DNA of 60,273 nt from IMG/VR virus record IMGVR_UViG_2778261541_000006, positions 1 to 60,273 of that record, one strand, 5' to 3'. The notes below the pieces were generated by a model. It was not told the DNA's origin. It worked only from the letters and a program-made list of their open reading frames with translations, and made no database searches. Position 1 is the first letter of the stretch; every line of letters begins with the position of its first letter. Both the position numbers and the translations under genes were made by a program. Origin of the DNA: a virus. Taxonomy: Duplodnaviria > Heunggongvirae > Uroviricota > Caudoviricetes. Positions 23,161 through 59,254 of the stretch are shown here, piece by piece.

Positions 23161-24465
23161 CTATATAAACTTAGATATAATATCGTGAATCTGTTGTAGC
23201 GGGATATCTTCCATCTCATTCTTAATAAGAGAGCGGTTAGATGCTGTCAGTGAAGGCCATTTTGTTTTCCAGGCTAGATATGCTCGCCATGAGCAGCCTG
23301 TTTCGTAAGGTTTATTCATATTAGTCATTGAGTGCTCAACCGCATGTATGTATTTTTTCTCAAAATTGGTTCCTTTTACTTCAAATAAACTACCGAAATA
23401 AATAAGCCATTTTGCCAAGTGTTCATACTGCTCCCATGCGCCAGGCTTTTTAGTAAGTTCTATTTTTTTATCTATTATATTACAAAAAACATTTAATACA
23501 TTTTCATTATTCCAGCTATATCCAGATGATGAAATGGAGGAAATGATATGATAAAAAGAATCCTCTAGCTTCAAGAACTCTATTTTATACTCTCTTCCGT
23601 TTTTTATTACCGATTTGATTGAGTGCCTCAATTTGTCTTTTATTTTTTTTGCTTCTGGAATTTTATCGTTAAGTTTTCTAAAGAAATCAGATACTTCTGT
23701 TTTATCTATAACCCTAACCCCATAGCAGGAAAAATAGTAATCTTTAATAGGTTGCAATAGTTCCCCTCGGGAAACAAGGAAAATATTGGAGGACATTACG
23801 TTGTCCCGTGAAAATACCTTATATTCATTTATAATAGCCTTTAGGTTCGCGTCACTTAGAGAATAGCCAAGGATAACAATAGTGTTTTCATGTAGAACTG
23901 TGCTTAGTTTATTAGAAAAGTAAGAATTACCATTTATAAATCTGAAATAATCCTCGCTAGTAACAACCATGTCTGATGGGGAGTCTATAGAACCGTGAAC
24001 ATGGTAGACTTTAACCTCACAATTATATTTTGGAATTGGCAGGCCGGGGGTGATTGTACACGTTCGATTCTCTCCAGCCAGCTTTTCTGCTAACTTGTCA
24101 TAATTTGTCGTAATTACTTTAAATGTGTTTTCTTTGAAAAAGTCTTGAATATATTCAATTGATGGATCAAGTTCGATTGAGGCTATGATTTTCTCAATCT
24201 CTTGGTAAATATTTTTCCCCGAAAGTATAAATTTTAGTGCAATAACCTGAGCAGCTTCTTCAAGGCTAAGGTCTTTTGCTTTTCCATCAGGAAATAATTC
24301 CTCTTTGAGTGAGTCACCATCCTTCAATAAACCGCACAGTTGCTCCAATAAAGATTGCCAACTTGGGGCTTTATCATCAGAAACAGCCTTTGAAAATCCA
24401 GTGCCTGTAAGAAAGCACAGCCTATGTGTAGCCGCTGCATAGGCAATTTCTATATACTCGCTCAT
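23161..24465 (-). CDS. SIR2-family protein (ThsA-like SIR2 domain) with uncharacterised C-terminal domain
   Basis: 434-aa ORF in a very AT-rich block; N-terminal half carries SIR2-type motifs in the same order as Thoeris ThsA (FLTGTGFS, TTNYDKL, HVHGS, ILGYSLSD); C-terminal 200 aa unrecognised. Confidence 0.7.
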   Translation of the reverse strand: MSEYIEIAYAAATHRLCFLTGTGFSKAVSDDKAPSWQSLLEQLCGLLKDGDSLKEELFPDGKAKDLSLEEAAQVIALKFILSGKNIYQEIEKIIASIELDPSIEYIQDFFKENTFKVITTNYDKLAEKLAGENRTCTITPGLPIPKYNCEVKVYHVHGSIDSPSDMVVTSEDYFRFINGNSYFSNKLSTVLHENTIVILGYSLSDANLKAIINEYKVFSRDNVMSSNIFLVSRGELLQPIKDYYFSCYGVRVIDKTEVSDFFRKLNDKIPEAKKIKDKLRHSIKSVIKNGREYKIEFLKLEDSFYHIISSISSSGYSWNNENVLNVFCNIIDKKIELTKKPGAWEQYEHLAKWLIYFGSLFEVKGTNFEKKYIHAVEHSMTNMNKPYETGCSWRAYLAWKTKWPSLTASNRSLIKNEMEDIPLQQIHDIISKFI

Positions 24466-24521: not shown

Positions 24522-25163
24522 TTATAGATAATTTCCTTTTCCTGTTAATACTCCCTTAGGCACCTGTTTTTGTGCCAGCGTTTGGGTGCCGCGAATTATG
24601 TTAATCAGAGGGCTTAGTAACGATGGTTCCTGGCGTGCCTCAACTTCTCCAGCCATTGCACTGATGTAGTCGGCGCTGGCAACGTTGTTGTATTCCGTCG
24701 CAAAGCAACATAGTAACGTCAGAACATGCTCTGTCGTTATTTCGCTCCAGTTGATGTTGAAAAATTCATCGCCTTTTTTATCGTGTTCGGAATCGAAGAT
24801 GCTTTGGTGGAGGATGTATTTGCCGGATTCCTTGCGCGGTAACTTGATTGCTTTCTGGCGTTCCAGCTCCTTATAAATCTGCATTGCCTCAATTAGTACC
24901 GGCCTGCCGTTCATGAAGGGATCGCGCAACCTTACACGCTGGCCAACTCGACCAGTAATAAAGCTGTTTTCCTCTTCCACCAGCACGATAAAACCTTTTT
25001 CCTCTTTCTCACGCAATTCGCGCAGCAACTGGAGTTCCATATCGCGGCGGCGTTCAGGGTAGCTGGTCCGCTCAGCCATTATCAGCTCGTTGTTGATCCA
25101 TGCAGCAGTCATTGACGCCGGTTTGCCGACGCTCATCGAAACAACGCATATTTTCTTATCCAT
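24522..25163 (-). CDS. hypothetical protein
   Basis: 213-aa ORF from Met50 of the track ORF (24522..25310), preceded by a GGGGG RBS; higher GC than the SIR2 gene; no recognisable domain. Confidence 0.45.
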   Translation of the reverse strand: MDKKICVVSMSVGKPASMTAAWINNELIMAERTSYPERRRDMELQLLRELREKEEKGFIVLVEEENSFITGRVGQRVRLRDPFMNGRPVLIEAMQIYKELERQKAIKLPRKESGKYILHQSIFDSEHDKKGDEFFNINWSEITTEHVLTLLCCFATEYNNVASADYISAMAGEVEARQEPSLLSPLINIIRGTQTLAQKQVPKGVLTGKGNYL

Positions 25164-25423
25164 AGCGCCCCCTACAAAAAAGAAAAGCCACCAGCGGCGG
25201 CTTAGCAATACAACTGAAGGTAGCGCCCGGTACTCAGACTGTGCCGTCCATGGAATATTTGAAAAGGGATCCATCCGTACCGGGCGTGTGATGATTCTGA
25301 CTGAAGTCACTTGTCAGTTGTCAATTATTTATTATTAAAAATAATATATTTATTAGTGCATACAAATAAGGCACTAAGTGTGCACATTGCAACCTCAGAG
25401 AGGAAACATTCAACTAGATTGTT

Positions 25424-25457
25424 ATTGCTCTAATAAATTTGATTTATTAGAGCAAAT
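25424..25457. promoter_or_regulatory. C1 operator pair upstream of icd-ant module 1
   Basis: ATTGCTCTAATAAATTT followed head-to-head by an inverted near-copy (ATTTATTAGAGCAAAT); matches the asymmetric 17-bp P1 C1 operator consensus. Confidence 0.6.
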
Positions 25458-25619
25458 AAACTACTATTGGACGCCAGACTATTGATCTTCCTGTTGTTCA
25501 GGCTTATAGTTCCTACGTCGTAGCAAATTCTGCGACCGGGTTTAGCAGCCTGAATGTACATGCGGACAACCGCAGATTTCCGATATTGCGGTATTTTTAT
25601 GTCCGTAAAACCGCGTTAC

Positions 25620-25700
25620 GCCCGAATTATGGTGGGGCGTGATGGGGAGGCTTCGGCCTGCTGGTTTCATGTACGCCAGTCTGCTAACCCCGTCACGTCC
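25620..25700 (+). ncRNA. candidate c4-like antisense RNA
   Basis: Segment containing CATGTAC and CTGCTAA, complementary to two copies each of GTACATG and TTAGCAG upstream (25542-25561) and at the icd RBS (25710-25749); extent approximate. Confidence 0.35.
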
Positions 25701-25757
25701 TGCCACCCGTTTAGCAGCGGGTAGCAGGTTGTTAAACCTGTACATGAGGCCGTAACT

Positions 25758-25979
25758 ATGGTTAATGCCAATCCTTGCGCACGCCCTGAATTTATCTGGC
25801 GCTTTTACTCCTGCCAGAAACGTCACTATCACTTCGTTATCGCACCAACAGAAGATGAGGCACGTTCTCAGCTTCCGGATGCTCCCTGTATTTTCTCTGC
25901 CCGCTTTTCTACCGATTTGCGCAATTCTCTCAGTTACTGGTGCCTCCCTGTTAACGCTTCTGCTCAGGAGGGGCTATGA
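25758..25979 (+). CDS. Icd-like small protein, translationally coupled to ant
   Basis: 73-aa ORF overlapping the downstream antirepressor start by 4 nt, the arrangement of P1 icd-ant1. Confidence 0.5.
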   Translation: MVNANPCARPEFIWRFYSCQKRHYHFVIAPTEDEARSQLPDAPCIFSARFSTDLRNSLSYWCLPVNASAQEGL

Positions 25980-27088
25980 GAACGTCATTAGTCACCCGTG
26001 AAGAGATGATCGAGGCAATTGAACAGCACACTGCCTGTATCAGTACCAGGGATATACCAGGCGTTATTGCCAACTACTTCATGATCACCAAACAACTTTA
26101 CCGGAGAAAGGACAAGAACGCGGTTCACCGCATTCTTCTAACTGATATCCGTGAATACCTGCTCGAACAGGGTCGTCTTGATTATGCAACCGTAACCGCC
26201 GAAGCACGCAAGGAGGCACACAGAATGAAAGCAACTAACGTTAAATCAGAAAAAATTCATGCACCTTCAGTTCAGGAATCGGAGCTGGTGGTTGTTCAAA
26301 ATCAGCCGGATGAAATTCCCGTTCTGGAATGGCAGGGAGTACGTGTCGTAACAACCGAAACTCTTGCTAAGGGGTACGGAACCGATGAAGGCAATATTCG
26401 TAAAAATTTGTCTTGCAACTCCGATCGCTTTGAAGAAGGTAAACACTACTTTCTTTTAACTGGTTCAAAATTAAGAGAATTTAAGAACAGAGTTACTTTT
26501 AGTAACTCTGTTGGTAAGAACGCCAGAAACCTCACTCTCTGGACGGAACGCGGCGCAGCCCGCCACGCTAAAATGATCGAAACCGATCAGGCATGGGCAT
26601 TCTTTGAAAAACTGGAAGACAGCTACTTCCGGCAAAAAGAACAGCAACCGGTCGCAATCCCTCAGACGCTTCCCGAAGCTCTGCGCCTGGCTGCCGAGCT
26701 GGCTGAACAAAAGCAACTTCTGGAACAGAAAGCCCACCAGCTAAATCAGCAGCTGGTGGCCGCAGCCCCTAAGGTCGATTTTGCCGACCGGGTATCAGTG
26801 GCTAAGGGGATCCTGATTGGGAATTTTGCAAAGGTTGTTGGACTTAAGCAAAATGCGCTGTTTGCCTGGTTACGGGAGAACGGCATCCTGATTGCGTCCG
26901 GCGGACGTAAAAATGTACCGTTTCAGCAGTACATAAACGCCGGATATTTCACAGTGAAAGAAGTGGTGCTGGATGATGAAGATGGCTATCAGATACGGCT
27001 GACGCCTCAATTAACGGGTAAAGGCCAGCAGTGGTTGACGCGTAAACTGCTCGATGCTGGCTTGTTAAAACCGGTGGCGGCTGAATGA
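25976..27088 (+). CDS. phage antirepressor (ORF6N N-domain plus KilA-C/Ant C-domain), copy 1
   Basis: 370-aa ORF; central motif IPVLEWQGVRVVTTETLAKGYG and C-terminal region VSVAKGILIGNFAKVVGLKQNALFAWLRENGIL are characteristic of antirepressor families. Confidence 0.65.
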   Translation: MRTSLVTREEMIEAIEQHTACISTRDIPGVIANYFMITKQLYRRKDKNAVHRILLTDIREYLLEQGRLDYATVTAEARKEAHRMKATNVKSEKIHAPSVQESELVVVQNQPDEIPVLEWQGVRVVTTETLAKGYGTDEGNIRKNLSCNSDRFEEGKHYFLLTGSKLREFKNRVTFSNSVGKNARNLTLWTERGAARHAKMIETDQAWAFFEKLEDSYFRQKEQQPVAIPQTLPEALRLAAELAEQKQLLEQKAHQLNQQLVAAAPKVDFADRVSVAKGILIGNFAKVVGLKQNALFAWLRENGILIASGGRKNVPFQQYINAGYFTVKEVVLDDEDGYQIRLTPQLTGKGQQWLTRKLLDAGLLKPVAAE

Positions 27089-27092
27089 TTAA

Positions 27093-27115
27093 AAAAGGCG
27101 GCCTTTCGGCCGCCA
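27093..27115 (-). terminator. terminator for the cre-side transcript
   Basis: Hairpin GGCGGCC-TTTC-GGCCGCC preceded on the plus strand by an A run, i.e. followed by a T run on the minus strand. Confidence 0.4.
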
Positions 27116-27691: not shown

Positions 27692-28723
27692 CTAATCGCC
27701 ATCTTCCAGCAGGCGCACCATTGCCCCCGTTTCACTATCCAGGTTACGAATGTAGTTCATGACAATATTTACGTTGGTCCAGCCACCAGCTTGCATGATC
27801 TCCGGTATTGAAACTCCGGCGCGGGCCATATCTCGCGCGGCACCGACACGGGCACTGTGTCCAGACCAGGCCAGGTATCTCTGGCCAGAGTCATCCTTAG
27901 CGCCGTAAATCAATCGATGAGTTGCTTCAAAAATCCCTTCCAGGGCGCGAGTTGATAGCTGGCTGGTGGCAGATGGCGCGGCAACACCATTTTTTCTGAC
28001 ACGGCAAAACAAGTAGTTATTCGGATCATCAGCCACACCAGAGACAGAAATCCATCGCTCGACCAGTTTAGTTACCCCCAGGCTAAGTGCCTTCTCTACA
28101 CCTGCGGTGCTAACCAGCGTTTTCGTTCTGCCAATATGGATTAACATTCTCCCACCGTCAGTACGTGAGATATCTTTAACCCTGATCCTGGCAATTTCGG
28201 CTATACGTAACAGGGTGTTATAAGCAATCCCCAGAAATGCCAGATTACGTATATCCTGGCAGCGATCGCTATTTTCCATGAGTGAACGAACCTGGTCGAA
28301 ATCAGTGCGTTCGAACGCCAGTGCCTGTTTTGCACGTTCACCGGCATCAACGTTTTCTTTTCGGATCCGTCGCATGACCAGTGAAACAGCATTACTGTCA
28401 CTTGGTCGTGGCAGCCCGGACCGACGATGAAGCATGTTTAGCTGGCCCAAATGTTGCTGGATAGTTTTTACTGCCAGACCGCGCGCCTGAAGATATAGAA
28501 GATAATCGCGAACATCTTCAGGTTCTGCGGGAAACCATTTCCGGTTATTCAACTTGCACCATGCCGCCCACGACCGGCAAACGGACAGAAGCATTTTCCA
28601 GGTATGCTCAGAAAACGCCTGGCGATCCCTGAACATGTCCATCAGGTTCTTGCGAACCTCATCACTCGTTGCATCGACCGGTAATGCAGGCAAATTTTGG
28701 TGTACGGTCAGTAAATTGGACAT
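27692..28723 (-). CDS. cre: Cre tyrosine site-specific recombinase
   Basis: 343-aa translation (MSNLLTVHQNLPALPVDATSDEVRKNLMDMFRDRQAFSEHTWK ... MVRLLEDGD) matches P1 Cre as I recall it. Confidence 0.97.
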   Translation of the reverse strand: MSNLLTVHQNLPALPVDATSDEVRKNLMDMFRDRQAFSEHTWKMLLSVCRSWAAWCKLNNRKWFPAEPEDVRDYLLYLQARGLAVKTIQQHLGQLNMLHRRSGLPRPSDSNAVSLVMRRIRKENVDAGERAKQALAFERTDFDQVRSLMENSDRCQDIRNLAFLGIAYNTLLRIAEIARIRVKDISRTDGGRMLIHIGRTKTLVSTAGVEKALSLGVTKLVERWISVSGVADDPNNYLFCRVRKNGVAAPSATSQLSTRALEGIFEATHRLIYGAKDDSGQRYLAWSGHSARVGAARDMARAGVSIPEIMQAGGWTNVNIVMNYIRNLDSETGAMVRLLEDGD

Positions 28724-30728: not shown

Positions 30729-30760
30729 ATTATGCCCGGCATCAACCGGGCATTCTTCCA

Positions 30761-31855
30761 TTATTCAGCCGCCACCGGTTTTAACAAGCCAGCATCGAGC
30801 AGTTTACGCGTCAACCACTGCTGGCCTTTACCCGTTAATTGAGGCGTCAACCGTATCTGGTAGCCATCTTCATCATCCAGCACCACTTCTTTCACCGTGA
30901 AATACCCCGCGTTGATGTACTGCTGGAACGGCACATTTTTACGTCCACCGGACGCTATCAGGATGCCGTTCTCCCGTAACCAGACAAACAGCGCGTTTTG
31001 CTTAAGTCCAACAACCTTTGCAAAATTCCCAATCAGGATCCCTTTAGCTACTGATACCCGGTCGGCAAAATCGACCTTAGGAGCGGCGGCCACCAGCTGC
31101 TGATTTAGCTGGTGGGCTTTCTGTTCCAGAAGCTGCTTTTGTTCAGCCAGTTCGGCAGCCAGGCGTAGGGCTTCTGGTAATGTTTGGGGGATTGTGATCG
31201 GTTGCTGTTCTTTTTGTCGGAAGTAGCTGTCTTCCAGTTTTTCAAAGAATGCCCATGCTTCATTTGTGTCCACGATCTTAGACATGCGTGCAGCACCGCG
31301 TTCGGCCCAGAGAATTACCTGACTTGTATATTTGCTAACCAAGTGACTAATAGTCACTAGCCTTTTAAATTCCTTTAACTTTGAACCGGTTAAGAGATAG
31401 TAATGCTTACCTTCTTCAAAGCGATCGGAGTTGCGAGACAAATTTTTACGAATATTGGCTTCATCGGTACCATACCCTCTAGCAAGAGTCTCGGTTGTTA
31501 CGACACGTACTCCCTGCCATTCCAGAACGGGAATTTCATCCAGCTGACTTTGAACAACCACCAGCCCGGATTCCTGAATTTCTGATTTAACGTTAGTTGC
31601 TTTCATTCTGTGTGCCTCCTTGCGTGCTTCGGCGGTTACGGTTGCATAATCAAGACGACCCTGTTCGAGCAGGTATTCACGGATATCAGTTAGAAGAATG
31701 CGGTGAACCGCGTTCTTGTCCTTTCTCCGGTAAAGTTGTTTGGTGATCATGAAGTAGTTGGCAATAACGCCTGGTATATCCCTGGTACTGATACAGGCAG
31801 TGTGCTGTTCAATTGCCTCGATCATCTCTTCACGGGTGACTAATGACGTTCTCAT
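30761..31855 (-). CDS. phage antirepressor (ORF6N plus KilA-C), copy 2
   Basis: 364-aa ORF; N-terminal about 88 aa and C-terminal about 185 aa identical or nearly so to copy 1, central segment diverged. Confidence 0.65.
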   Translation of the reverse strand: MRTSLVTREEMIEAIEQHTACISTRDIPGVIANYFMITKQLYRRKDKNAVHRILLTDIREYLLEQGRLDYATVTAEARKEAHRMKATNVKSEIQESGLVVVQSQLDEIPVLEWQGVRVVTTETLARGYGTDEANIRKNLSRNSDRFEEGKHYYLLTGSKLKEFKRLVTISHLVSKYTSQVILWAERGAARMSKIVDTNEAWAFFEKLEDSYFRQKEQQPITIPQTLPEALRLAAELAEQKQLLEQKAHQLNQQLVAAAPKVDFADRVSVAKGILIGNFAKVVGLKQNALFVWLRENGILIASGGRKNVPFQQYINAGYFTVKEVVLDDEDGYQIRLTPQLTGKGQQWLTRKLLDAGLLKPVAAE

Positions 31856-32073
31856 AGTCCCTCCTGAGCAGAAGCGTTAACAGGGAGGCACCAGTAACTG
31901 AGAGAATTGCGTGAATCAGTGGAAAAACGGGCAGAGAAAATACATGGGGCGTCAGGAAGCTGAGTGCGGGCCTCATCTTCTGTTGGTGCAATAACGAAGT
32001 GATAGTGACGTTTTTGGCAGGAGTAAAAGCGCCAGATAAATTCAGGATGAGTTGGGGTAGGGATAGTAGCCAT
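31852..32073 (-). CDS. Icd-like small protein, copy 2
   Basis: 73-aa ORF (MATIPTPTHPEFIWRFYSCQKRHYHF...) with AAGGAGG RBS, overlapping the copy-2 antirepressor start by 4 nt; N-terminus differs from copy 1. Confidence 0.5.
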   Translation of the reverse strand: MATIPTPTHPEFIWRFYSCQKRHYHFVIAPTEDEARTQLPDAPCIFSARFSTDSRNSLSYWCLPVNASAQEGL

Positions 32074-32393
32074 ATTGGCAGCCTCCTTAGACGTTGGTAT
32101 GTAACCACCGCAGAAGAGACCAATCTTGCTGGCGGTGGACTGTACGGAGTTGGCCTTACTGGCGTCCAAGGTAACCAGCCTACCCGAAGGTAGCCCCATA
32201 CAGCCCACCATTGTAGATGGTGTGCGTGTACGCCGATACAAAAAAAGACGCGAGCGGCGTCTGTATCGCCTTAGACTTAAGCGGGAGGCCAATCCCGGCA
32301 CCCGTTTTAATGAGGTGCCTGATAAGCATAAACCGAAAATGCCTCAAGGCGCAAGAGGTCAGGTTCAATGTAACATCGGTAGCTAAAAAACAC

Positions 32394-32410
32394 AATTTAT
32401 TAGAGCAAAT
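32394..32410. promoter_or_regulatory. C1 operator upstream of icd-ant module 2
   Basis: AATTTATTAGAGCAAAT immediately beyond the pacB stop, at the head of the minus-strand module. Confidence 0.55.
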
Positions 32411-32412
32411 AT

Positions 32413-33897
32413 TCATTCATTAAGCCATGCCAGAGCTTCATCAACCTGCGCTTCGTCTTCGACGCTAAGCACTTCGTCCTGGGGAACATAATCCGCCAGC
32501 ATAGCGAAACAATATGTATCCCAATGGTCTGGTGAGTGCAGATTGAGTTTTTTCTTCATATCCTCCTTACTCATCACCTTCCATTGACCTGCGGAGTTAA
32601 TACCTACAGGTATTTTAGACGCTTCCTCAATGGTTGCATTACCCTTATCCAGTCTCATACGACCAGATTTTACGGCCTCTGCGGCTTGAACGTTGGCATA
32701 AGCACGTTTATCAAAGTACAGGCTCTTATCTTCACGGCTATGCATCTTTTTACCCCAGCGTATACGCTGTACGGTAATACCATAATACTCGTACATCAGA
32801 TCCGCCGTTGCTTTACCCAGCCCATCGCCGTCTATCGCTATGGTGATATTTGGGAATCGCTCAGGATTACATTCTGCGAAAATTTTGGCGGCAAGCTGCG
32901 TTTCTGTAACGTCTGTGTATTCCAGCATTCGATAGTTGATTACACGGCGTTTATTTCGCTGGCCGGACACCATCATGATATTGATAACGGACTTATCCCG
33001 TCCCGTACCACCAGCAACGTCCACACATGCAAGCCAGCCCCATCCTTTGGCAATCTTGACTTTCCGCCGCGTTGCACGTTCAACCTCATCACGTCCAAGA
33101 AGGAAGCCATCCTGTGATTTAGGGAATAGGCCGCGCACCTTAATCATGTACATAGGGTTATCACGCCCGCCGTACTCCGCCAGCTTCATTTTGATAAATG
33201 CTGGCGTTACCAGCGGTGATTCCTCACTGTTAAGCGTGATCGCCGTATAAACGCCATCAGGGTTACCAGGACGCTTGGCCAGTTTATGGTGTGTATCGTA
33301 GAAATAGCCGCTTGGGCGTGTAGGCTGTGACAGTAATAAGATGCGGTTATCCTGTCCGGTAAGAGCACCGGTGATGATACCGAAAGCTCTATCACTGACA
33401 CCGGAGGCTTCATCGATAATATACAGAAGATGATCTGCGTGTTCACCGGCGAGAGCTTCTTCACTTCCCAGACGAAAGCCCTTCGGTACTACAGTCCATA
33501 CACCTTTACCTGTAACCTCATAGAAAGCGGTTTCTGTCAGAACAAAATAATCAGCAAGCCATGGGAAACGGCTGGTGGCAGTAGCCCAGTTTATCTTGAT
33601 GTACTTGAATATACCGGTCATTACCTGCTGAATTTTGTTCGCAACGATAATGGCGCGGGCACCGGGATACATGATTATGAACAACATGATCATGATAGAA
33701 GTCATGTCTGATTTCCCGGTACCGTGACCAGACGAAACAGATGTCTTGCTACCCTGTTCCTGCACAGACTCAATAATCAGATCCTGCTGCCAGGTAGGTG
33801 TTTTGCCGAACAAAACATCAGCGGCAGCAATCCAGTCATAACGATATAGCGCCACCAGCTCGCGCCAACGTGGATCCGTTACGCAACTTCTGGCCAT
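32413..33897 (-). CDS. pacB: terminase large subunit PacB
   Basis: 494-aa ORF overlapping pacA stop by 1 nt; ATPase-like motifs ([19 protein letters not shown]). Confidence 0.9.
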
Positions 33898-35090
33898 TAA
33901 TCATCATCCCCGTATAGCTTGCGGGTAACTTCTTCGTCTTCCTCCTCGTCTTCGTCCAGGTCTTGTTCCAGCCATGGGTCGTTTGATACACCTTCAGTAT
34001 CAACATCTCCATAACCGCCTGTATCAACGATATCGGCGATTTCTTCCCTACGCTGCTCAATCCACAATGCGGCATCGGCGCGGCGGTTGGCGGCCCGTTC
34101 TCGCGCAACTTTGTCCAGATCTTCAAGAGAAGGGCCACCGACGGCTGTTTGCCTTTCCTCATCATCGGTATTGGTCTTAGGAGCACGCAGATCGGCTTTG
34201 ATTTGCTCCAGCATCAGGGGCGGCACTTTCCCGCCATGCGCCTCGATGAATTCAGCTGCTTCCAGCACTGACCAGTTATTTTCACGCTTTCGTTCGTATG
34301 CCAGCTTAACAATGCCAGCTTGCCCCATAGACAAAGCGTGCTTTTCCGCCTCCCGGCTTTCTTTTCGATAGTTATTCCGGATGCTGTAAATGGTGTTGAT
34401 CAGACTGCTTATCTGCGCGGAACAGCTGTTTAGCATGCTCGCGATACGGTATTCAGGCGGAGTACCTTCATCATCGTCTTTTTGCTGATCGCGCATTTCC
34501 TGCACCAAGCGAATACACGTATCCCTGGCGTTCTCCAGCATAAGGAGATGAGAAAGAGACTTTTCCAGAAGAGTGGTTTCCAGAACATCGGCCCCGGACC
34601 GACGCAACATAGCGCGCGCGGCCTTCCGCGCTTCAACGTTATCTATCAGGTAATCGCCAGCTTCGAATTCAAAGCGTTCACCATCATCATCCAGGGTGTC
34701 GCGTTCCAGGCGATCACGTAAGGTACGGTGGGCGCGGGTGATCACGTCATGATCATCAGAGCGATCATTTATGCGCTTATTTTGGCGCTTAGCGTTCTCG
34801 ACTGCGGCACTGACAACAGCATTAACTCTTTGTTTTTCAGCCATTTCAGTCGCAATGTGATCACCCGCACGTTGATCATTAGCGTGATCAATGATCATGC
34901 TTTTTAGTGGTTTCCTGACAGGCTTATTTGGCTTACGACTGTCCGCTGTTCCGGTGTCTTCTTTGAATGCACGGAGATAACGACGTGCGGTGTTTGGGTT
35001 GAGATTAAACTCGGCGGCATATTGTGCGATGGTGTAACCACCCTCTCGCGCCAGGCGAGCAAAATTCTTCTTGTGATCGTCCCAGGTCAC
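33897..35090 (-). CDS. pacA: terminase small subunit PacA
   Basis: 397-aa ORF with N-terminal HTH-like region and acidic C-terminus; contains the pac site in its 5' part. Confidence 0.9.
34741..34905 (-). other. pac: pac packaging site with TGATCA/G hexamer clusters
   Basis: Two clusters of GATC-containing hexamers (TGATCA, TGATCAT...) about 100 bp apart inside pacA; matches the P1 pac architecture. Confidence 0.7.
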
Positions 35091-37574: not shown

Positions 37575-37740
37575 AAACACCTCGTGTACTCGTTATGTGT
37601 ACACAATTATAAACTTCACAGGCATAAAGCACCAGCACTTTGCGGCTTAACAAACCTCTAGGCAGGTCATTCGTAGGAACTGCTAAAGCATCCAAGTTGC
37701 TGTAGAATCACCGCCAATTACATAAGCCTGAAAGAAGTGG

Positions 37741-39303
37741 ATGAAAATGACAAGTATTCAACAACGTGCAGAGCTTCATCGTCAAATCTGGCAAATTGCT
37801 AACGATGTCAGGGGTTCGGTCGATGGATGGGATTTTAAGCAATACGTTCTGGGCGCACTTTTCTACCGTTTTATCAGCGAAAATTTTTCCAGTTATATTG
37901 AAGCCGGTGATGACAGTATCTGTTATGCGAAACTGAATGACAGCGTAATTACTGATGACATTAAAGACGATGCCATCAAAACCAAAGGTTACTTCATCTA
38001 CCCCAGTCAGCTTTTCTGCAACGTAGCTGCGAAAGCAAATACCAATGACAGACTGAATGCGGATTTAAACAGCATCTTCGTTGCTATCGAAAGTTCTGCT
38101 TACGGTTACCCTTCAGAAGCTGACATCAAAGGTTTGTTTGCTGATTTCGATACTACCAGTAACCGCCTGGGTAACACCGTTAAAGATAAAAATGCCCGCC
38201 TGGCTGCGGTTCTGAAAGGAGTTGAAGGGCTAAAACTTGGTGACTTCCACGAACATCAGATTGACCTGTTCGGTGACGCCTATGAGTTCCTGATTTCTAA
38301 CTATGCGGCAAATGCCGGTAAGTCAGGCGGTGAGTTCTTTACACCGCAGCACGTCTCCAAGCTGATTGCACAACTGGCTATGCACGGGCAGACCAACGTT
38401 AACAAAATCTACGACCCGGCAGCAGGTTCCGGCTCACTGTTGTTGCAGGCTAAAAAGCAGTTTGATAACCATATCATTGAAGAAGGCTTTTTCGGACAGG
38501 AAATCAACCATACGACCTATAACCTGGCACGTATGAACATGTTTTTGCACAACATCAACTACGACAAGTTTGATATCAAGCTGGGCAATACGCTGACTGA
38601 GCCGCACTTCAGAGATGAAAAACCGTTTGATGCCATCGTTTCTAACCCGCCGTATTCGGTGAAATGGATTGGCAGCGATGACCCGACGCTGATTAACGAT
38701 GAACGTTTTGCCCCGGCTGGCGTCCTGGCCCCCAAATCCAAAGCTGACTTCGCCTTTGTACTACATGCGCTGAACTATCTTTCGGCCAAAGGTCGCGCTG
38801 CGATTGTTTGCTTCCCGGGTATTTTTTACCGTGGCGGCGCAGAGCAGAAAATCCGTCAGTATCTGGTCGACAATAACTATGTCGAAACCGTGATTTCACT
38901 GGCACCGAACCTGTTCTTTGGCACCACCATTGCCGTAAACATTCTGGTTCTGTCTAAACATAAAACGGATACCAACGTTCAGTTTATTGACGCCAGCGAA
39001 CTGTTCAAAAAAGAGACTAACAACAATATCCTGACCGATGCCCATATCGAACAGATTATGCAGGTATTTTCCAGCAAGGAAGATGTTGCTCATCTGGCAA
39101 AATCTGTCACGTTTGAGGCCGTTGTCGCTAATGACTATAACCTGTCGGTAAGCAGCTATGTGGAAGCGAAAGATAACCGCGAAATTATCGATATCGGTGA
39201 GCTGAATGCTGAGCTGAAAACCACGGTCAGCAAAATCGACCAGTTGCGTAAAGATATTGATGCAATTGTGGCTGAAATTGAAGGCTGCGAGGTGCAGAAA
39301 TGA
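37741..39303 (+). CDS. hsdM: type I restriction-modification methyltransferase subunit HsdM
   Basis: 520-aa ORF with N6-adenine MTase motifs (NPPYS at [10 protein letters not shown]; AdoMet-binding [10 protein letters not shown]). Confidence 0.9.
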
Positions 39304-40508
39304 GCGAGCTGAGCTATCTGGAAAAACTGTTGGATGGGGTTGAGGTTGAGTGGGCAACATTGGGTTCTATGGCAGATATCGGTACTGGAAGCTCAAATCG
39401 TCAGGATGAAAGCGAAAATGGAATTTATCCATTCTATGTTCGCTCAAAGAATATCTTGAAGTCAGATACCTTTGAATTTGATGAGGTAGCAATAGTCATT
39501 CCTGGTGAAGGTGGAATTGGCGACATATTTCACTATGTTGAGGGGAAATATGCTCTACATCAAAGGGCGTATAGAATTCGTATCACAACTAATGCCGTAG
39601 ACACGAAGTTTTTGTATTACTTCATGTCATCTAGCTTTAAGCAGTACATCTTGACAAAAAGTGTGGGTGCTACCGCCATTTCGATAAGAAAACCCATGCT
39701 GGAAGGATTTAAAGTTCCCATTCCTAGCCCGGACAACCCGGAAAAGTCCCTAGCCATCCAGTCTGAAATCGTTCGGATTCTGGATAAGTTTACTGCACTT
39801 ACCGCTGAGCTAACCGCTGAGCTAACCGCTGAGCTTAACATGCGTAAAAAACAGTACAACTTCTATCGTGACCAGTTGTTGAGTTTTAAAGAGGGGGAGG
39901 TTGAGTGGAAAAGTCTGGAAGATATTGCTTTATTTAGACGGGGTTCATTTCCACAGCCATATGGAAATAGTGAATGGTATGATGGAGAAGGTTGCATGCC
40001 TTTTGTTCAGGTAGCTGATGTGGCTGATTCAGGATTTACATTACACACAAAAACCAAACAACAGATTTCTAAGATTGCACAAAGCAAGAGCGTTTTTGTT
40101 GAGGCTGGAACAATTGTTGTGACACTGCAAGGTACTATTGGTCGAGTAGCAATAACACAGTACGATTGTTATGTGGATAGAACTCTTGCAATATTTACTA
40201 ACTTTAAAGTAAAAATAAACAAAAAATACTTTGCTTATCAACTAAAAGCTAAATTCGATTCAGAGAAAGAATTTGCAAGAGGAAGTACTTTGAAGACAAT
40301 TACAAAAGAAGAGTTTTCTAAGTTCCAATTACCTCTTCCCTCAATAAACGAACAAAATCGTATAGTATCACTATTGGATAAGTTCGATACACTGGCTCAT
40401 TCAATAAAACAAGGTCTCCCGCGTGAAATCGAGTTGCGCCAGAAACAATACGAGTACTATCGTGATTTACTGTTCAGTTTCCCGAAACCTGAAACTGTCA
40501 GTAATTAA
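39300..40508 (+). CDS. hsdS: type I R-M specificity subunit HsdS, type IC (EcoR124-like)
   Basis: 402-aa ORF overlapping hsdM stop by 4 nt; two target-recognition domains separated by a central [12 protein letters not shown] repeat region. Confidence 0.85.
39800..39835 (+). repeat. 3 x 12-bp tandem repeat (ACCGCTGAGCTA) encoding TAEL x3 in the hsdS central conserved region
   Basis: Three direct copies, the third with one substitution; in-frame within hsdS. Confidence 0.8.
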
Positions 40509-40629
40509 TTGACCGTTGCTACCGACCGGGCCACCTTAACATCCGGTCTGTATATAGACTATTTTTTACGTGCCGGAAGTCACTCTTAACGCCCTTCCGA
40601 CCCTTGCCAGACGGCACAAAGGATGCGCT

Positions 40630-43600
40630 ATGACTCATCAAACACACACCATTGCTGAATCCAATAACTTTATCGTTCTTGATAAGTACATCAAAGCTGA
40701 GCAAACAGGCAACAGCTATCAGAGCGAATCGGACCTGGAACAGGAACTGATTCAGGACCTGCGAAATCAGGGCTATGAATTTATATCCGTAAAATCTCAG
40801 TCGGCGATGCTGGCCAATGTTCGACAACAGCTTCAGAGCCTCAATGGTGTGGTGTTTAATGACAGCGAGTGGCGGCGTTTCACGGAGCAGTATCTGGACA
40901 ACCCGAGCGATGGAATTCTGGATAAGACCCGTAAAATCCATATCGACTATATTTGCGACTTTATTTTTGATGACGAGCGACTTGAGAACATCTATTTGAT
41001 AGATAAAAAGAATCTCATGCGCAATAAGGTGCAGATTATCCAGCAGTTTGAACAGACGGGTTCTCATGCTAACCGTTATGACGTCACGATCCTGGTTAAT
41101 GGTTTACCGCTGGTGCAAATCGAACTAAAAAAACGCGGGGTGGCGATTCGTGAGGCTTTCAACCAGATACATCGTTACAGTAAAGAGAGTTTTAACAGCG
41201 AAAATTCCCTGTTTAAGTATCTGCAACTGTTTGTCATTTCTAACGGCACCGATACCCGTTATTTTGCCAACACGACAAAGCGCGATAAAAACAGTTTTGA
41301 CTTCACCATGAACTGGGCTAAAGCAGACAATACACTGATTAAAGACCTCAAAGACTTTACCGCTACCTTTTTCCAGAAACATACTCTGCTTAATGTTCTG
41401 GTGAACTACAGCGTTTTTGACAGCAGTCAGACACTACTGGTAATGCGACCGTACCAGATTGCCGCCACCGAGCGCATTCTGTGGAAAATTAAGAGTTCCT
41501 TTACAGCGAAGAACTGGTCAAAACCGGAAAGCGGTGGGTATATCTGGCACACTACCGGTTCTGGTAAAACCCTCACCAGCTTTAAAGCCGCGCGTCTGGC
41601 AACAGAGCTGGACTTTATTGATAAAGTCTTCTTCGTGGTCGACAGGAAAGACCTCGATTACCAGACCATGAAGGAATATCAGCGTTTTTCGCCAGACAGC
41701 GTCAACGGCTCGGAAAATACCGCAGGACTTAAACGAAATCTGGACAAGGACGATAACAAAATTATCGTCACTACTATTCAGAAACTCAATAACCTGATGA
41801 AAGCAGAAAGCGACCTGCCTGTATATAATCAGCAAGTGGTGTTTATATTTGATGAATGCCACCGCAGCCAGTTTGGAGAAGCGCAGAAAAACCTGAAGAA
41901 GAAATTCAAACGCTATTATCAGTTTGGTTTTACCGGCACACCTATTTTCCCGGAAAACGCCTTAGGCTCAGAAACGACCGCCAGCGTATTTGGTCGTGAA
42001 TTGCATTCGTATGTAATTACCGATGCGATTCGTGATGAAAAAGTGCTCAAATTCAAGGTGGACTACAACGATGTGCGGCCACAGTTTAAGTCTTTAGAGA
42101 CAGAAACTGACGAGAAAAAACTAAGTGCGGCTGAAAATCAGCAGGCGTTTCTTCATCCCATGCGTATACAGGAAATTACGCAATATATTCTGAATAACTT
42201 CCGCCAGAAGACGCACCGTACTTTCCCTAGCGCAAAAGGTTTTAATGCTATGTTGGCAGTGAGCAGCGTGGATGCTGCAAAAGCCTATTACGCGGCGTTT
42301 AAACGGTTACAAGAGGAAGCCGCTAATAAATCTGCAACTTATAAACCGCTGCGTGTTGCGACAATCTTCTCCTTTGCCGCTAATGAAGAACAAAATGCCA
42401 TTGGTGAAATTTCCGATGAAACTTTTGATACCAGCGCAATGGACAGCAGTGCTAAAGAGTTTCTTGACGCTGCAATTCGTGAGTATAACAGCTATTTTAA
42501 AACTAACTTCAGCACCGACAGTAACGGTTTTCAGAACTACTATCGCGATTTAGCCCAACGGGTTAAAAATCAGGATATCGATCTGTTAATTGTCGTGGGG
42601 ATGTTTTTAACTGGCTTCGATGCTCCAACATTGAACACGCTATTCGTCGATAAAAACCTGCGTTTTCACGGCTTGATGCAGGCATTTTCCCGCACCAACC
42701 GTATTTATGATGGAACTAAAACCTTCGGTAATATCGTCACTTTCCGGGATCTGGAACGCTCAACTATTGATGCCATAACGCTGTTTGGTGACAAAAACAC
42801 CAAAAATGTGGTTTTAGAAAAGAGTTATGCAGAGTATATGGAAGGCTTTACTGATGCTGCCACTGGTGAAGCTAAGCGCGGCTTTATGGCAGTAGTTTCA
42901 GAACTGGAACAACGGTTCCCTGACCCTGCCAGTATTGAAAGTGAAAAAGAGAAGAAAGACTTCGTTAAACTGTTTGGTGAATACCTGCGTGCCGAGAACA
43001 TCCTGCAAAACTATGATGAATTTGCCACGCTGAAAGCCCTGCAACAAATCGATCTTAGCGATCCTGTTGCGGTAGAAAAATTCAAAGAAGAACATTATGT
43101 GGATGATGAAAAGTTCGCTGAATTGCAAACGATTCGTCTCCCTGCTGAACGCAAGATTCAGGATTATCGTTCTGCCTATAACGATATTCGTGACTGGCAG
43201 CGCCGCGAGAAAGAAGCTGATAAAAAAGAAAAATCAACCACTGACTGGGATGACGTGGTTTTTGAGGTCGATTTGCTGAAGTCTCAGGAAATAAACCTGG
43301 ATTATATCCTTGGACTGATTTTCGAACACAACAGACAAAATAAAGGCAAGGGCGAAATGATCGAAGAGGTCAAACGCTTAATTCGTTCAAGCCTGGGGAA
43401 CCGGGCGAAAGAGGGCCTGGTGGTCGATTTTATTCAGCAAACGAACCTGGATGATTTACCAGACAAAGCCAGTATCATTGAGGCATTCTTTACGTTTGCT
43501 CAACGCGAACAGCAACGTGAAGCAGAAGCATTGATAAAAGAAGAAAATCTCAATGAAGATGCAGCAAAACGCTATATTCGCACGTCTTTAAAACGCGAAT

Positions 43601-43746
43601 ACGCCACCGAAAATGGCACAGAATTAAACGAAACATTACCAAAACTTAGTCCGTTGAATCCGCAATATAAAACGAAAAAACAGGCAGTTTTCCAGAAAAT
43701 CGTCTCGTTTATTGAGAAGTTTAAAGGCGTAGGCGGAAAAATATAG
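40630..43746 (+). CDS. hsdR: type I R-M restriction subunit HsdR (EcoR124-family)
   Basis: Start at internal Met ([14 protein letters not shown]) with AAAGGA RBS; helicase motifs (TGSGKT, DECHRSQ) and PD-(D/E)xK region; N-terminus matches my recollection of EcoR124I HsdR. Confidence 0.9.
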
Positions 43747-43765
43747 CCCAATTCGTGTTTTTCTT

Positions 43766-43794
43766 GCGGGTTCTTAATTAAACCCGCAAGAGCT
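43766..43794. terminator. hairpin terminator after hsdR
   Basis: Inverted repeat CTTGCGGGTT-CTTAATTAA-ACCCGCAAG just after the hsdR stop. Confidence 0.4.
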
Positions 43795-43998
43795 CGTGGG
43801 GTTCCAAATGGCTAATATACTCCCCTTACCCATGCGCGACGATGCCGCCAAAAGTGATAGAGAACAGCCAGAAATAGATCGCGGTCATAATGATTTTGAA
43901 TGCCGTGTTCATATCTTCAGCTCCTGTGATTGATTGGATATATGCCGCGCCCCTTGCGGCATGTTTTTATTTTCACACACTCTGTTTTAAAAATCAAG

Positions 43999-59178: not shown

Positions 59179-59254
59179 TGGTGCCGATTAACGGACTCGA
59201 ACCGCTGACATCCTGCTTACAAGGCAGGCGCTCTACCAACTGAGCTAAACCGGC
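59179..59254 (-). tRNA. tRNA-Thr (UGU)
   Basis: Minus-strand 76-nt cloverleaf GCCGGTT-TAGCTCAGTTGGTAGAGC-CCTGC-CTTGTAA-GCAGG-...-GGTTCGAGTCC-...-CCA. Confidence 0.85.

What the first reader, a model, noticed from the sequence alone, without database searches (positions are those of the whole stretch)
25540..25760. Candidate c4-like antisense RNA with duplicated target sites overlapping the icd RBS (module 1 only)
Seen in sequence: TTAGCAG and GTACATG each occur twice on the plus strand (about 25542-25561 and 25710-25746, the second pair ending at the GAGG RBS of the 73-aa ORF), while between them (about 25664-25690) lies CATGTAC ... CTGCTAA, the exact complements. Established: P1 c4 is a processed antisense RNA whose two short elements pair with target sites upstream of icd to block translation of icd and, by coupling, ant; P1 and P7 differ in these elements, giving heteroimmunity. 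Inference: module 1 encodes its own c4-like repressor RNA; the copy-2 upstream region has a different sequence (a hairpin CCACCGC...GCGGTGG abutting the RBS), suggesting a different specificity or regulatory logic.
Basis: partly seen in the sequence, partly recalled or inferred. Interest (0 to 1): 0.6.

Follow-up and report, generated by a model that had tools for sequence, protein, structure and literature searches.

The report
P1-type c4 antisense RNA, new specificity
This is the well-known c4 antisense RNA switch of phage P1/P7, which blocks translation of the icd-ant antirepressor genes; it sits in an extra cassette of a P1-like phage-plasmid, carries an uncharacterised but widespread recognition sequence, and the second cassette in the window has its own c4 RNA too.

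Summary
TTAGCAG (25542, 25711) and GTACATG (25556, 25740) each occur twice, flanking their exact complements CATGTAC (25668) and CTGCTAA (25681). Rfam scores 25625-25710 as C4 antisense RNA (71.7 bits, cut-off 45) and 25504-25556 as its a1/b1 target leader (53.2 bits, cut-off 46.7). The layout matches annotated P1 immI element for element: C1 operator, promoter, a1, b1, c4, a2, b2 on the icd Shine-Dalgarno, then icd overlapping ant.

The a element equals P7's. The b element differs from both P1 and P7, and it changes coordinately in all three places.

Across 167 C4 copies next to icd genes I found 19 (b',a') classes. In every class the RNA's own loops match its own upstream and RBS sites (about 7-9 paired bases, against about 4.8 for non-cognate pairs).

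"Module 1 only" is wrong. Module 2 (32128-32215, minus strand) scores higher as C4 (75.9 bits) and has its own matched sites.

Verdict: a known family with an uncharacterised specificity allele, present in 21 complete E. coli replicons at 99% identity or more. Modest interest.

The parts
25424..25456 (+). C1 repressor operator(s) upstream of module 1. A perfect 17-mer ATTGCTCTAATAAATTT lies at 25424-25440 (+), with an overlapping inverted copy at 25440-25456 (-, 3 mismatches). Positional equivalent of P1 Oc4/Op51.
   Evidence: Pattern search: 15 matches in the window against 0.3 expected. Aligned with the annotated P1 operator.
25482..25510 (+). Sigma-70 promoter TTGATC-17-TATAGT, equivalent to P1 promoter P1c4 (former P51b: TTGACC / TATAGT).
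   Evidence: Promoter scan. Correspondence to the annotated P1 hexamers, with the same 32-nt distance from -10 to a1.
25504..25598 (+). 5' leader RNA carrying a1 and b1. It has hairpin 1, then hairpin 2 presenting a1, then single-stranded b1, then a terminator-like hairpin (ACCGCAG 25569-25575 / TGCGGT 25587-25592) followed by a U-run. An alternative hairpin lies at 25561-25574.
   Evidence: Rfam c4-a1b1 at 53.2 bits (cut-off 46.7) over 25504-25556. The isrK model scores 46.4 bits (cut-off 50) over 25517-25598. Folds; coordinates.
25542..25548 (+). a1 target site TTAGCAG (same as P7 a1).
25555..25562 (+). b1 target site (T)GTACATG.
25625..25710 (+). C4 antisense RNA gene. The predicted mature 77-nt RNA is 25631-25707, by alignment to the annotated P1 c4. 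A long closing stem carries two internal hairpins.
   Evidence: Rfam RF01695 at 71.7 bits (cut-off 45). My own model scores it 101.2 bits. MFE -44.9 kcal/mol, z = -4.9, 0 of 200 shuffles as stable. Stems covary across loci.
25668..25675 (+). b' recognition element CATGTAC(G) in the loop of the second hairpin of C4.
25681..25687 (+). a' recognition element CTGCTAA in the single-stranded junction of C4.
25711..25717 (+). a2 target site TTAGCAG, 4 nt after the predicted 3' end of C4, presented in the loop of a hairpin (25705-25722).
25739..25749 (+). b2 target site TGTACATG, continuing into the icd Shine-Dalgarno GAGG (25746-25749). The C4 loop UUUCAUGUACG can pair with all 11 nt (3 G:U).
25758..25979 (+). 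icd (73 aa), the directly repressed ORF. Its stop overlaps the ant start (ATGA at 25976-25979).
   Evidence: Annotated as an Icd-like protein in the plasmid record that is 100% identical over the 231-nt leader query.
25976..27088 (+). ant (370 aa; ORF6N + KilAC antirepressor domains), with a conserved internal Ant2 start (AAGGAGG...ATG, 26210-26227). It is 56% identical to P1 Ant1 and 90% identical to the module-2 Ant.
32393..32409 (-). Module 2: C1 operator TTTGCTCTAATAAATTG.
   Evidence: aligned with P1 Oc4.
32241..32318 (-). Module 2: a1/b1 leader (IsrK-type) with a1 TTGGCCT (32286-32292), b1 GTCTAAGG (32269-32276) and an intrinsic terminator (32262-32246 plus a T-run).
   Evidence: Rfam isrK at 60.8 bits (cut-off 50); terminator scan.
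32128..32215 (-). Module 2: C4 antisense RNA with b' CCTTGGACG (32163-32171) and a' AGGCCAA (32150-32156).
   Evidence: Rfam C4 at 75.9 bits. MFE -41.8 kcal/mol, z = -4.6..
32082..32123 (-). Module 2: a2 TTGGTCT (32117-32123), in the loop of the CCACCGC/GCGGTGG hairpin, and b2 CGTCTAAGGAGG (32082-32093), covering the icd Shine-Dalgarno.
30761..32073 (-). Module 2: icd (31852-32073) and ant (30761-31855), overlapping by ATGA.

Best explanation
Window 25424-27088 is a complete P1-type immI cassette. The window itself is a P1-like (Punavirus) phage-plasmid. A C1-controlled sigma-70 promoter drives one transcript that contains, in order: a structured leader with target sites a1 and b1, the c4 RNA, target sites a2 and b2, icd, and the translationally coupled ant. 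By homology with P1/P7, the roughly 77-nt C4 RNA (25631-25707) is cut out of this transcript. Its hairpin loop (b', CAUGUAC) and junction (a', CUGCUAA) pair with a2 and b2 on icd-ant mRNA made by the same element or by an incoming relative. The b2 pairing covers the icd Shine-Dalgarno, so icd is not translated, and ant, which depends on icd translation, is not made. C1 repression, and with it lysogeny and superinfection immunity, is thereby protected from antirepressor. The specificity is new relative to the two characterised phages: a' equals P7's, and b' differs from both P1 and P7. Module 2 (32409-30761, minus strand) is a second cassette of the same kind with a fully different address. Its predicted pairing energies with the other module's sites are weak, so orthogonality is inferred from that. 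Shown here: family membership, architecture, complementarity and covariation. Inferred from P1/P7 knowledge: processing, translational block, coupling and the immunity phenotype.
For: (1) Rfam gives C4 at 71.7 bits and c4-a1b1 at 53.2 bits, both above the curated cut-offs.

(2) Base-by-base alignment with P1 and P7, whose records annotate Oc4, the P1c4 and P2c4 promoters, a1, b1, c4, a2, b2, icd and ant1/ant2, shows the same order and spacing.

(3) Three-way compensatory change at b1, b' and b2:
- P1: GTTAGTG / CACTAAC
- P7: GATTGTG / CACAATC
- This module: GTACATG / CATGTAC

(4) Among 167 C4 copies found next to icd in 160 independently fetched loci plus references, there are 19 (b',a') classes. 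In every class the cognate sites pair over at least 7.5-8 nt (b1, b2) and about 7 nt (a1, a2), against a non-cognate mean of about 4.8.

(5) Loop-only duplex energies sum to -37.8 kcal/mol for the cognate pairing, against -9.8 to -24.8 for P1, P7 or module-2 targets.

(6) G:U wobbles in module 2 (C4 G opposite target U) work only for RNA-RNA pairing between transcripts of the same strand.

(7) The C4 fold has z = -4.9. Of its 28 stem pairs, 14 show compensatory changes and 98.5% of cells are paired, with 0 of 500 shuffles reaching that.

(8) icd and ant overlap by ATGA, the internal Ant2 start is conserved, and Ant has KilAC and ORF6N domains.

(9) The exact 231-nt leader is conserved at 99% identity or more in 21 records of complete E. 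coli genomes and 11 PLSDB plasmids.
Against: No expression, processing or repression data exist for this allele; everything functional is by homology.

The cassette is not at the canonical immI position between sim and kilA-repL. It replaces ref, between mat and c8, so its role in the immunity circuit could differ quantitatively.

Its Ant is only 56% identical to P1 Ant1, with a different middle domain. Its ability to inactivate this element's C1 is therefore assumed, not shown.

The short leader hairpins are not individually more stable than shuffled sequence (z about -1 to -2).
Confidence: 0.9

Rival explanations
1. The a1/b1 leader is not just a spare target but an active counter-regulator. 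It terminates at its own hairpin and U-run to give a short IsrK-like RNA, which titrates C4 or remodels the long mRNA and so switches icd-ant translation on. Under this reading the cassette is a two-RNA toggle rather than a simple antisense repressor. This would add to the best explanation rather than replace it.
For: The isrK model overlaps the c4-a1b1 model on the same leader in both modules (46.4 and 60.8 bits). Module 2 has a clear intrinsic terminator between b1 and C4, and module 1 has a terminator-like hairpin plus U-run with a competing alternative hairpin. In Gifsy-1, IsrK given in trans raises anrP translation about 140-fold, and a processed RNA of about 80 nt (STnc1160), complementary to IsrK, lies just downstream, positioned like C4 (PMC4825925). 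a1/b1 covary with C4 as tightly as a2/b2 in all 19 classes, so they are under selection.
Against: The P1 record calls a1/b1 only 'putative' targets. Module 1 scores below the isrK gathering cut-off. The terminator in module 1 was not called by the consensus scan. In the Gifsy-1 study, co-expression of STnc1160 did not counteract IsrK.
Confidence: 0.3
2. Module 1 is not a fully separate immunity type. Because its a element is identical to P7's, its C4 partly cross-represses P7-type cassettes and vice versa, so the b difference only weakens the interaction.
For: a1, a' and a2 are identical to P7. Summed loop energies for mod1 to P7 (-24.8) and P7 to mod1 (-21.3 kcal/mol) lie between the cognate value (about -37) and fully heterologous values (-7 to -15).
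Against: The b element is the one that covers the Shine-Dalgarno, and its heterologous energies are weak (-3.2 against -11.9 kcal/mol at b2). In nature, cassettes that share only a (L013/L020) or only b (L029/L036) co-reside on one contig, and 26 of 27 co-resident pairs differ in at least one element. That is what would be expected if one differing element suffices for orthogonality.
Confidence: 0.25
3. The cassette is an inert relic of a duplication or recombination event, and the repeats are merely inherited sequence with no present function.
For: It lies outside the canonical immI position, and its coding part is 97% identical to the other cassette, which shows recent exchange.
Against: All parts are intact: operator with 0 mismatches, promoter, full-length C4 model match, both target pairs, and complete icd and ant ORFs with their coupling overlap. 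The 231-nt leader is 100% conserved in at least 12 complete replicons from different hosts and countries. The same b allele occurs with two different a alleles, always with matched targets.
Confidence: 0.04
4. The repeated 7-mers are DNA-level protein-binding sites, such as iterons or operators, rather than RNA pairing partners.
For: They are short repeats near a C1 operator.
Against: The middle copies are reverse complements embedded in the unpaired loops of a strongly structured, covarying RNA. Across 19 allele classes what is kept is complementarity, not sequence, including G:U wobbles that are mismatches at the DNA level. The C1 operator consensus is a different sequence.
Confidence: 0.01

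Closest known systems
c4 antisense RNA of phage P7 (immI; AF503408 / NC_050152, misc_RNA c4)
   Same: Same backbone, about 88% DNA identity over c4-icd. Identical a1, a' and a2 (TTAGCAG / CTGCTAA). Same operator, promoter, spacing, icd and ant1/ant2 organisation.
   Different: The b element is GTACATG/CATGTAC instead of GATTGTG/CACAATC at all three positions. The location differs: it replaces ref near cre instead of lying between the tail genes and kilA-repL. Ant has an ORF6N middle domain.
c4 antisense RNA of phage P1 (immI; NC_005856, features a1, b1, c4, a2, b2 annotated)
   Same: Same family and architecture. All annotated P1 features have a positional counterpart here. The predicted mature RNA has the same 77-nt length and the same GGUGGGG...CCUGCCACC ends.
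   Different: Both a (P1: TTGACAG/CTGTCAA) and b (P1: GTTAGTG/CACTAAC) differ. P1 has a single cassette, and P1 has nothing between pacB and c1 (pacB ends at 93206 and c1 at 93231).
Unannotated identical copy in Escherichia phage vB_EcoM-Ro157c2YLVW (NC_050153) and plasmids such as NZ_CP027590
   Same: The query 25380-26000 is 97% identical to the phage copy, and the 231-nt leader is 100% identical to the plasmid copy. The a/b alleles are the same. CP027590 has the same two-cassette arrangement flanking cre-c1.
   Different: In those records only icd and ant are annotated, and no c4 RNA or target sites are marked. The genes upstream differ: the SIR2 gene is present here.
IsrK / STnc1160 / orf45-anrP locus of Salmonella prophage Gifsy-1 (Rfam RF01394; PMC4825925), with homologues upstream of Rha/antirepressor genes in Stx-converting phages
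   Same: Module 2's leader passes the isrK model (60.8 bits) and is about 80% identical to the Stx-phage copies. In both, a leader with a terminator is followed by a processed RNA of about 80 nt complementary to it, then a small ORF translationally coupled to an antirepressor.
   Different: The published IsrK model describes activation by the short leader RNA through mRNA refolding, and likens the system to P4 CI/seqA rather than to P1 c4. Here the downstream small ORF is icd, not orf45.
Extra icd-ant insertions described in P1-like plasmids (RCS47; pTZ20_1P between pacB and c1; pSvP1 RD-1) - Venturini et al. 2019, PMC6906374
   Same: The same two insertion sites as modules 2 and 1.
   Different: That paper reports the ORFs only. 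In the passages retrieved by my term search, c4 is named only as part of canonical ImmI, and no c4 RNA or specificity is assigned to the extra cassettes.

Membership tests
C4 antisense RNA (Rfam RF01695; P1/P7 immI c4) | Match to the family covariance model above the curated gathering score | tested here: met
   71.7 bits against a cut-off of 45, full-length match 1-87 of 87, at 25625-25710 (+). Module 2 scores 75.9 bits.
C4 antisense RNA (Rfam RF01695; P1/P7 immI c4) | Long closing stem enclosing two hairpins, with b' in the loop of the second hairpin and a' in the single-stranded junction 3' of it | tested here: met
   The MFE equals the centroid structure, -44.9 kcal/mol, z = -4.9. CATGTAC lies in the 9-nt loop and CTGCTAA in the 7-nt junction. 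14 of 28 pairs covary across loci.
C4 antisense RNA (Rfam RF01695; P1/P7 immI c4) | Two recognition elements complementary to two pairs of sites on the same transcript: a1/b1 upstream and a2/b2 downstream | tested here: met
   Exact 7-8-mers at 25542, 25555, 25711 and 25739. This holds in all 19 natural allele classes, with cognate pairing far above non-cognate.
C4 antisense RNA (Rfam RF01695; P1/P7 immI c4) | b2 overlaps the ribosome-binding site of icd, and icd is translationally coupled to ant | tested here: met
   b2 at 25739-25746 runs into GAGG at 25746-25749, with the ATG at 25758. The icd stop and ant start overlap as ATGA at 25976-25979.
C4 antisense RNA (Rfam RF01695; P1/P7 immI c4) | Transcribed from a C1-operator-controlled sigma-70 promoter (Op51 / P51) | tested here: met
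   A perfect operator at 25424-25440 and a TTGATC-17-TATAGT promoter at 25482-25510, both aligned to the annotated P1 features. This is sequence evidence only.
C4 antisense RNA (Rfam RF01695; P1/P7 immI c4) | Mature RNA of about 77 nt released from the precursor by processing (RNase P at the 5' end, by my recollection of the P1 literature) and stable in lysogens | not testable with these tools
   Only the conserved ends GGUGGGG...GCCACC, identical to the annotated P1 c4 ends, can be shown.
C4 antisense RNA (Rfam RF01695; P1/P7 immI c4) | Represses icd/ant translation in trans and determines immI heteroimmunity | not testable with these tools
   Predicted only. Loop duplex energies are -37.8 kcal/mol for the cognate pairing, against -18.3 (P1), -24.8 (P7) and -9.8 (module 2).
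C4 antisense RNA (Rfam RF01695; P1/P7 immI c4) | Canonical genomic position (sim - c4 - icd - ant - kilA - repL). This is typical of P1/P7 and not strictly defining. | tested here: not met
   Module 1 replaces ref, between mat and c8. Module 2 lies between pacB and c1. The canonical position is outside the window.
c4-a1b1 leader (Rfam RF03163) | Match above the gathering score, with two hairpins and a1 in the loop of the second | tested here: met
   53.2 bits against a cut-off of 46.7 at 25504-25556. Module 2 reaches only 20.5 bits with this model.
isrK Hfq-binding RNA (Rfam RF01394) | Match above the gathering score, including the 3' intrinsic terminator | tested here: inconclusive
   Module 1 scores 46.4 bits against a cut-off of 50 over 25517-25598, full model length. 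Module 2 scores 60.8 bits, which passes. Hfq binding is not testable.

The most novel reading that the evidence does not exclude
P1-like phage-plasmids may use a combinatorial two-element RNA address code. At least 9 b alleles combine with 2-3 a alleles on the P1 backbone, and there is a second backbone with its own alleles. They stack up to three or more c4-icd-ant cassettes of differing specificity at fixed hot spots: the canonical immI site, the ref site and the pacB|c1 site. Each extra cassette would be both a shield and a weapon. As a shield, its C4 silences the matching antirepressor of an incoming relative. As a weapon, its Ant escapes any resident that lacks the matching C4. Recombination would reshuffle addresses, because the coding parts are nearly identical (97%) while the RNA parts are only about 48% identical. 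The a1/b1 leader, which is homologous to IsrK, would act as a decoy that sets the threshold of the switch. This would tie the P1 c4 and Gifsy-1 IsrK/STnc1160 literatures into one mechanism.
Probability: 0.4. Interest if true: 0.55.

Novelty: new member of a known kind. Interest (0 to 1): 0.3.

Why it matters
The c4 system is one of the earliest described trans-acting antisense RNA repressors, and it is the basis of P1/P7 heteroimmunity. This cassette shows that the two characterised specificities are only a small sample. Among 167 C4 copies next to icd there are 19 address combinations, all with perfectly co-varying targets. About one in ten complete E. coli genomes carries this type of leader, often in several copies with differing specificities.

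For annotation, the practical point is that extra icd-ant cassettes in P1-like resistance and STEC plasmids each bring their own unannotated c4 RNA. These RNAs probably decide which related phage-plasmids can coexist with, exclude or induce one another. The natural allele series is also a ready-made set of candidate orthogonal antisense/target pairs for synthetic biology.

None of this changes the known mechanism, so the finding itself is of modest interest.

Tried and rejected
- **Exact-pattern scans.** I scanned viral contigs and genome contigs for the P1 c4 backbone with N-masked loops. They gave only 4 and 1 loci, too few for an allele survey. I replaced this with Icd-anchored locus retrieval.
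- **duplexfold on long segments.** Including the stem sequence gave inflated, uninformative energies. I redid it with loop-only sequences.
- **Consensus terminator scan.** It found no terminator in the module-1 leader.
- **Unavailable or silent papers.** The P1 genome paper (PMC523184) is not held. The pUTAK-22 preprint says nothing on c4. Three literature or paper-lookup calls failed on terms that were too short.
- **The 262-aa ORF at 24522-25310.** I first considered that it and the 434-aa ORF formed a two-gene defence pair. The 262-aa ORF is P1 mat (93.7% DNA identity), so that idea is rejected. The 434-aa gene is a SIR2_2-domain protein.
- **The module-2 hairpin.** I considered that CCACCGC/GCGGTGG marked a different, structure-only control. 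This is rejected because P1 and module 1 have a hairpin at the same position presenting a2, and a full C4 lies immediately upstream.
- **mir-1231 hit.** This hit at 25627-25709 (23.8 bits against a cut-off of 80) is a chance match to the C4 stem.
Full report
**What the window is.** The window encodes Cre (27692-28723, minus strand), C1 (29877-30728), PacB and PacA (32413-35090, minus strand) and three tRNAs. It aligns at 92-98% identity with most of phage P1, running antiparallel to the P1 map from about P1 31.8 kb through lox (0/94.8 kb) to about 68.5 kb. It is therefore a P1-like (Punavirus) phage-plasmid. Over the c4-icd region, the nearest phage record is Escherichia phage vB_EcoM-Ro157c2YLVW (97% identity). 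E. coli plasmids such as NZ_CP027590 are 100% identical over the 231-nt leader.

**The observation.**
- TTAGCAG at 25542 and 25711
- GTACATG at 25556 and 25740
- CATGTAC at 25668
- CTGCTAA at 25681

Each 7-mer is expected about 0.016 times in 250 nt. The 8-mer TGTACATG occurs only at these two places in the whole window. The second GTACATG runs into GAGG (25746-25749), 8 nt upstream of the ATG of the 73-aa ORF.

**Identity.** Rfam scores 25625-25710 (+) as C4 antisense RNA (RF01695) at 71.7 bits against a gathering score of 45. It scores 25504-25556 as the c4-a1b1 target leader (RF03163) at 53.2 bits against 46.7. The P1 reference record annotates every element of the immI control region: operator Oc4, promoters P2c4 and P1c4, a1, b1, the 77-nt c4 RNA, a2, b2, icd and ant1/ant2. 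Each one has a positional counterpart here:
- A perfect C1 operator lies at 25424-25440.
- The promoter is TTGATC-17-TATAGT at 25482-25510, against P1's TTGACC/TATAGT.
- The distance from -10 to a1 is 32 nt, the same as in P1.
- The predicted mature RNA, 25631-25707, has the same ends as P1 c4.

This RNA folds into the family structure with b' in a hairpin loop and a' in the junction. The MFE is -44.9 kcal/mol, z = -4.9, and none of 200 shuffles is as stable. The icd stop overlaps the ant start (ATGA, 25976-25979). The internal Ant2 start is conserved. Ant carries ORF6N and KilAC antirepressor domains.

**Specificity.** The alignment of P1, P7 and this module is the most informative single result.

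| Source | a target / a' | b target / b' |
|---|---|---|
| P1 | TTGACAG / CTGTCAA | GTTAGTG / CACTAAC |
| P7 | TTAGCAG / CTGCTAA | GATTGTG / CACAATC |
| Module 1 | TTAGCAG / CTGCTAA | GTACATG / CATGTAC |

Module 1's a element equals P7's. Its b element differs from both, and the change appears coordinately at b1, b' and b2. Loop-only duplex energies sum to -37.8 kcal/mol for the cognate pairing. They are -18.3 with P1 targets, -24.8 with P7 targets (the shared a element) and -9.8 with module-2 targets.

**A test by natural variation.** I fetched 160 loci that encode an Icd relative, 80 from IMG/VR and 80 from metagenomes. I built a covariance model from seven diverse C4 sequences. It found a C4 directly upstream of icd in essentially every locus: 167 hits including the references.

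The loops fall into 19 (b',a') classes. In every class the RNA's own loops find at least 7.5-8 paired bases at b1 and b2, and about 7 at a1 and a2. Non-cognate combinations average about 4.8. The b2 pairing regularly extends into the Shine-Dalgarno. Some classes use G:U wobbles, which makes sense only for RNA-RNA pairing between transcripts of the same strand.

The C4 stems covary as well. Of 28 pairs, 14 show changes on both sides, and 98.5% of cells are paired. No shuffle of 500 reached the observed values, and the slid-partner controls were far lower. This amounts to a natural compensatory-mutation experiment. It strongly supports the antisense mechanism for this allele, although it is not an expression assay.

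**How common the allele is.** The CATGTAC b' allele is not rare. In this sample it occurs with a' CTGCTAA in 9 copies and with a' CTGTCAA in 14. The sample is biased towards Icd proteins similar to the query. The exact 231-nt leader is at least 99% identical in 11 PLSDB plasmids and in 21 records of complete E. coli genomes. Leaders of this type occur in 575 plasmids and in 536 of 5426 complete E. coli genomes, with up to five places per genome.

**Module 2 and the claim 'module 1 only'.** On the minus strand, 32215-32128 is a C4 with a higher Rfam score (75.9 bits). It is preceded by a leader that passes the isrK model (60.8 bits, 32318-32241) and by a C1 operator (32409-32393). Its elements are:
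- a1 TTGGCCT
- b1 GTCTAAGG
- b' CCTTGGAC(G)
- a' AGGCCAA
- a2 TTGGTCT
- b2 CGTCTAAGG, running into the GGAGG Shine-Dalgarno

Module 1 and P1 have a hairpin at the same position. This class is the most frequent in my sample (41 copies). It occurs in 103 PLSDB plasmids with the full leader, and at about 80% identity upstream of Rha/antirepressor genes in many Stx-converting phages.

**Genomic placement.** Neither cassette is at the canonical immI site, which lies outside the window. Module 1 replaces P1 ref, between mat and c8. Module 2 is inserted between pacB and c1, where P1 has only 24 bp. Both sites are already recorded as places where P1-like plasmids carry extra icd-ant or ant genes: pSvP1 RD-1, and pTZ20_1P and RCS47 (PMC6906374; RCS47 annotation). 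The passages retrieved from that paper name c4 only as part of canonical ImmI, and the public records do not annotate c4 RNAs in the extra cassettes.

The two cassettes are inverted repeats. They are 97% identical from about codon 10 of icd into ant, and 89% identical over the rest of ant. Across the RNA-regulatory part they are only about 48% identical. Among 27 pairs of cassettes that share a contig, 26 differ in at least one recognition element.

**The leader and IsrK.** The isrK and c4-a1b1 models overlap on the same leader in both modules. The two Rfam families therefore appear to describe one homologous element: two hairpins (a1 in the second loop), single-stranded b1, and a terminator. 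In Gifsy-1, IsrK supplied in trans activates translation of a small ORF coupled to an antirepressor. A processed RNA of about 80 nt (STnc1160), complementary to IsrK, lies where C4 would be. The authors compared this with P4 CI/seqA rather than with P1 c4 (PMC4825925). A 2025 review lists IsrK and c4 as unrelated entries (PMC12197685). The leader here may therefore act as a decoy or counter-regulator of C4. I rate that at about 0.3, as an additional layer and not as an alternative.

**Mechanism, with what is shown and what is inferred.**
- Shown by sequence analysis: family membership, architecture, complementarity, covariation, and intactness of all parts.
- Inferred from established P1/P7 knowledge: this covers processing of C4 from the operon transcript, the block of icd translation by pairing at a2/b2, loss of ant expression through translational coupling, and the resulting immunity specificity. 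The sources are the record annotations, the review PMC12197685, and my recollection of the work of Citron, Schuster and colleagues, which I could not read here.

**Verdict.** This is a real, intact c4-type antisense regulator of a known family with an uncharacterised specificity. It is one of two cassettes in the window with different predicted specificities. The novelty is a new member of a known kind, and the interest is modest (0.3). The combinatorial address code and the multi-cassette arrangement are the more interesting lead.

Noticed in passing
window 23161-24465 (-): A 434-aa SIR2_2-domain protein sits where P1 carries the EcoPI res-mod genes. It is a candidate anti-phage defence cargo in the known variable region RD-1. 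The same SIR2 gene occurs next to either ref or an icd-ant cassette in other P1-like plasmids.
   Followed up: partly
window 25785-27099 and 30750-32046: The two icd-ant cassettes form inverted repeats (468 nt at 97% and 829 nt at 89%) flanking c8-cre-lox-imcAB-coi-c1. Homologous recombination between them could invert the whole immC/lox segment. High identity starts about 27 nt into icd, while the RNA-regulatory part is only about 48% identical, so the specificity part and the coding part have separate histories.
   Followed up: partly
window 25424-25456: Module 1 has two overlapping, oppositely oriented C1-operator matches (0 and 3 mismatches). P1 annotates a single monovalent operator Oc4 at this position, so repression by C1 may be tighter or cooperative here.
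   Followed up: no
window 25517-25598 and 32241-32318 (-): The Rfam families isrK (RF01394) and c4-a1b1 (RF03163) hit the same leader element in both cassettes. IsrK of Gifsy-1 thus appears homologous to the a1/b1 leader of P1-type immI operons, and the downstream processed RNA STnc1160 is positioned like C4. In the papers I read, the two are treated as unrelated.
   Followed up: partly
window 37650-43822: About 6 kb between the humD-side and pap-side P1 homology has no counterpart in P1 (no blastn match at E <= 1e-20). Its content was not examined.
   Followed up: no
L008 3532-3617 (JBEBWV010000114.1, MAG labelled Achromobacter deleyi): This contig carries a c4 on the P1-type backbone with its own alleles (b' CTTTTAC, a' CTGCAAA) and perfectly matched a1/b1/a2/b2 sites. 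It is either a c4 cassette outside Enterobacterales or a binning contaminant.
   Followed up: no
L015/L084/L085, L030/L033/L042, L093/L094/L098 (three loci per contig): Several viral and metagenomic contigs carry three c4-icd cassettes, each with a different (b',a') address. Complete E. coli genomes have up to five places matching the leader.
   Followed up: partly
window 57302-57374, 59182-59254, 59260-59332 (-): Three tRNA genes, corresponding to the tRNA cluster near ban in P1 (trnA, trnT, trnI region).
   Followed up: no
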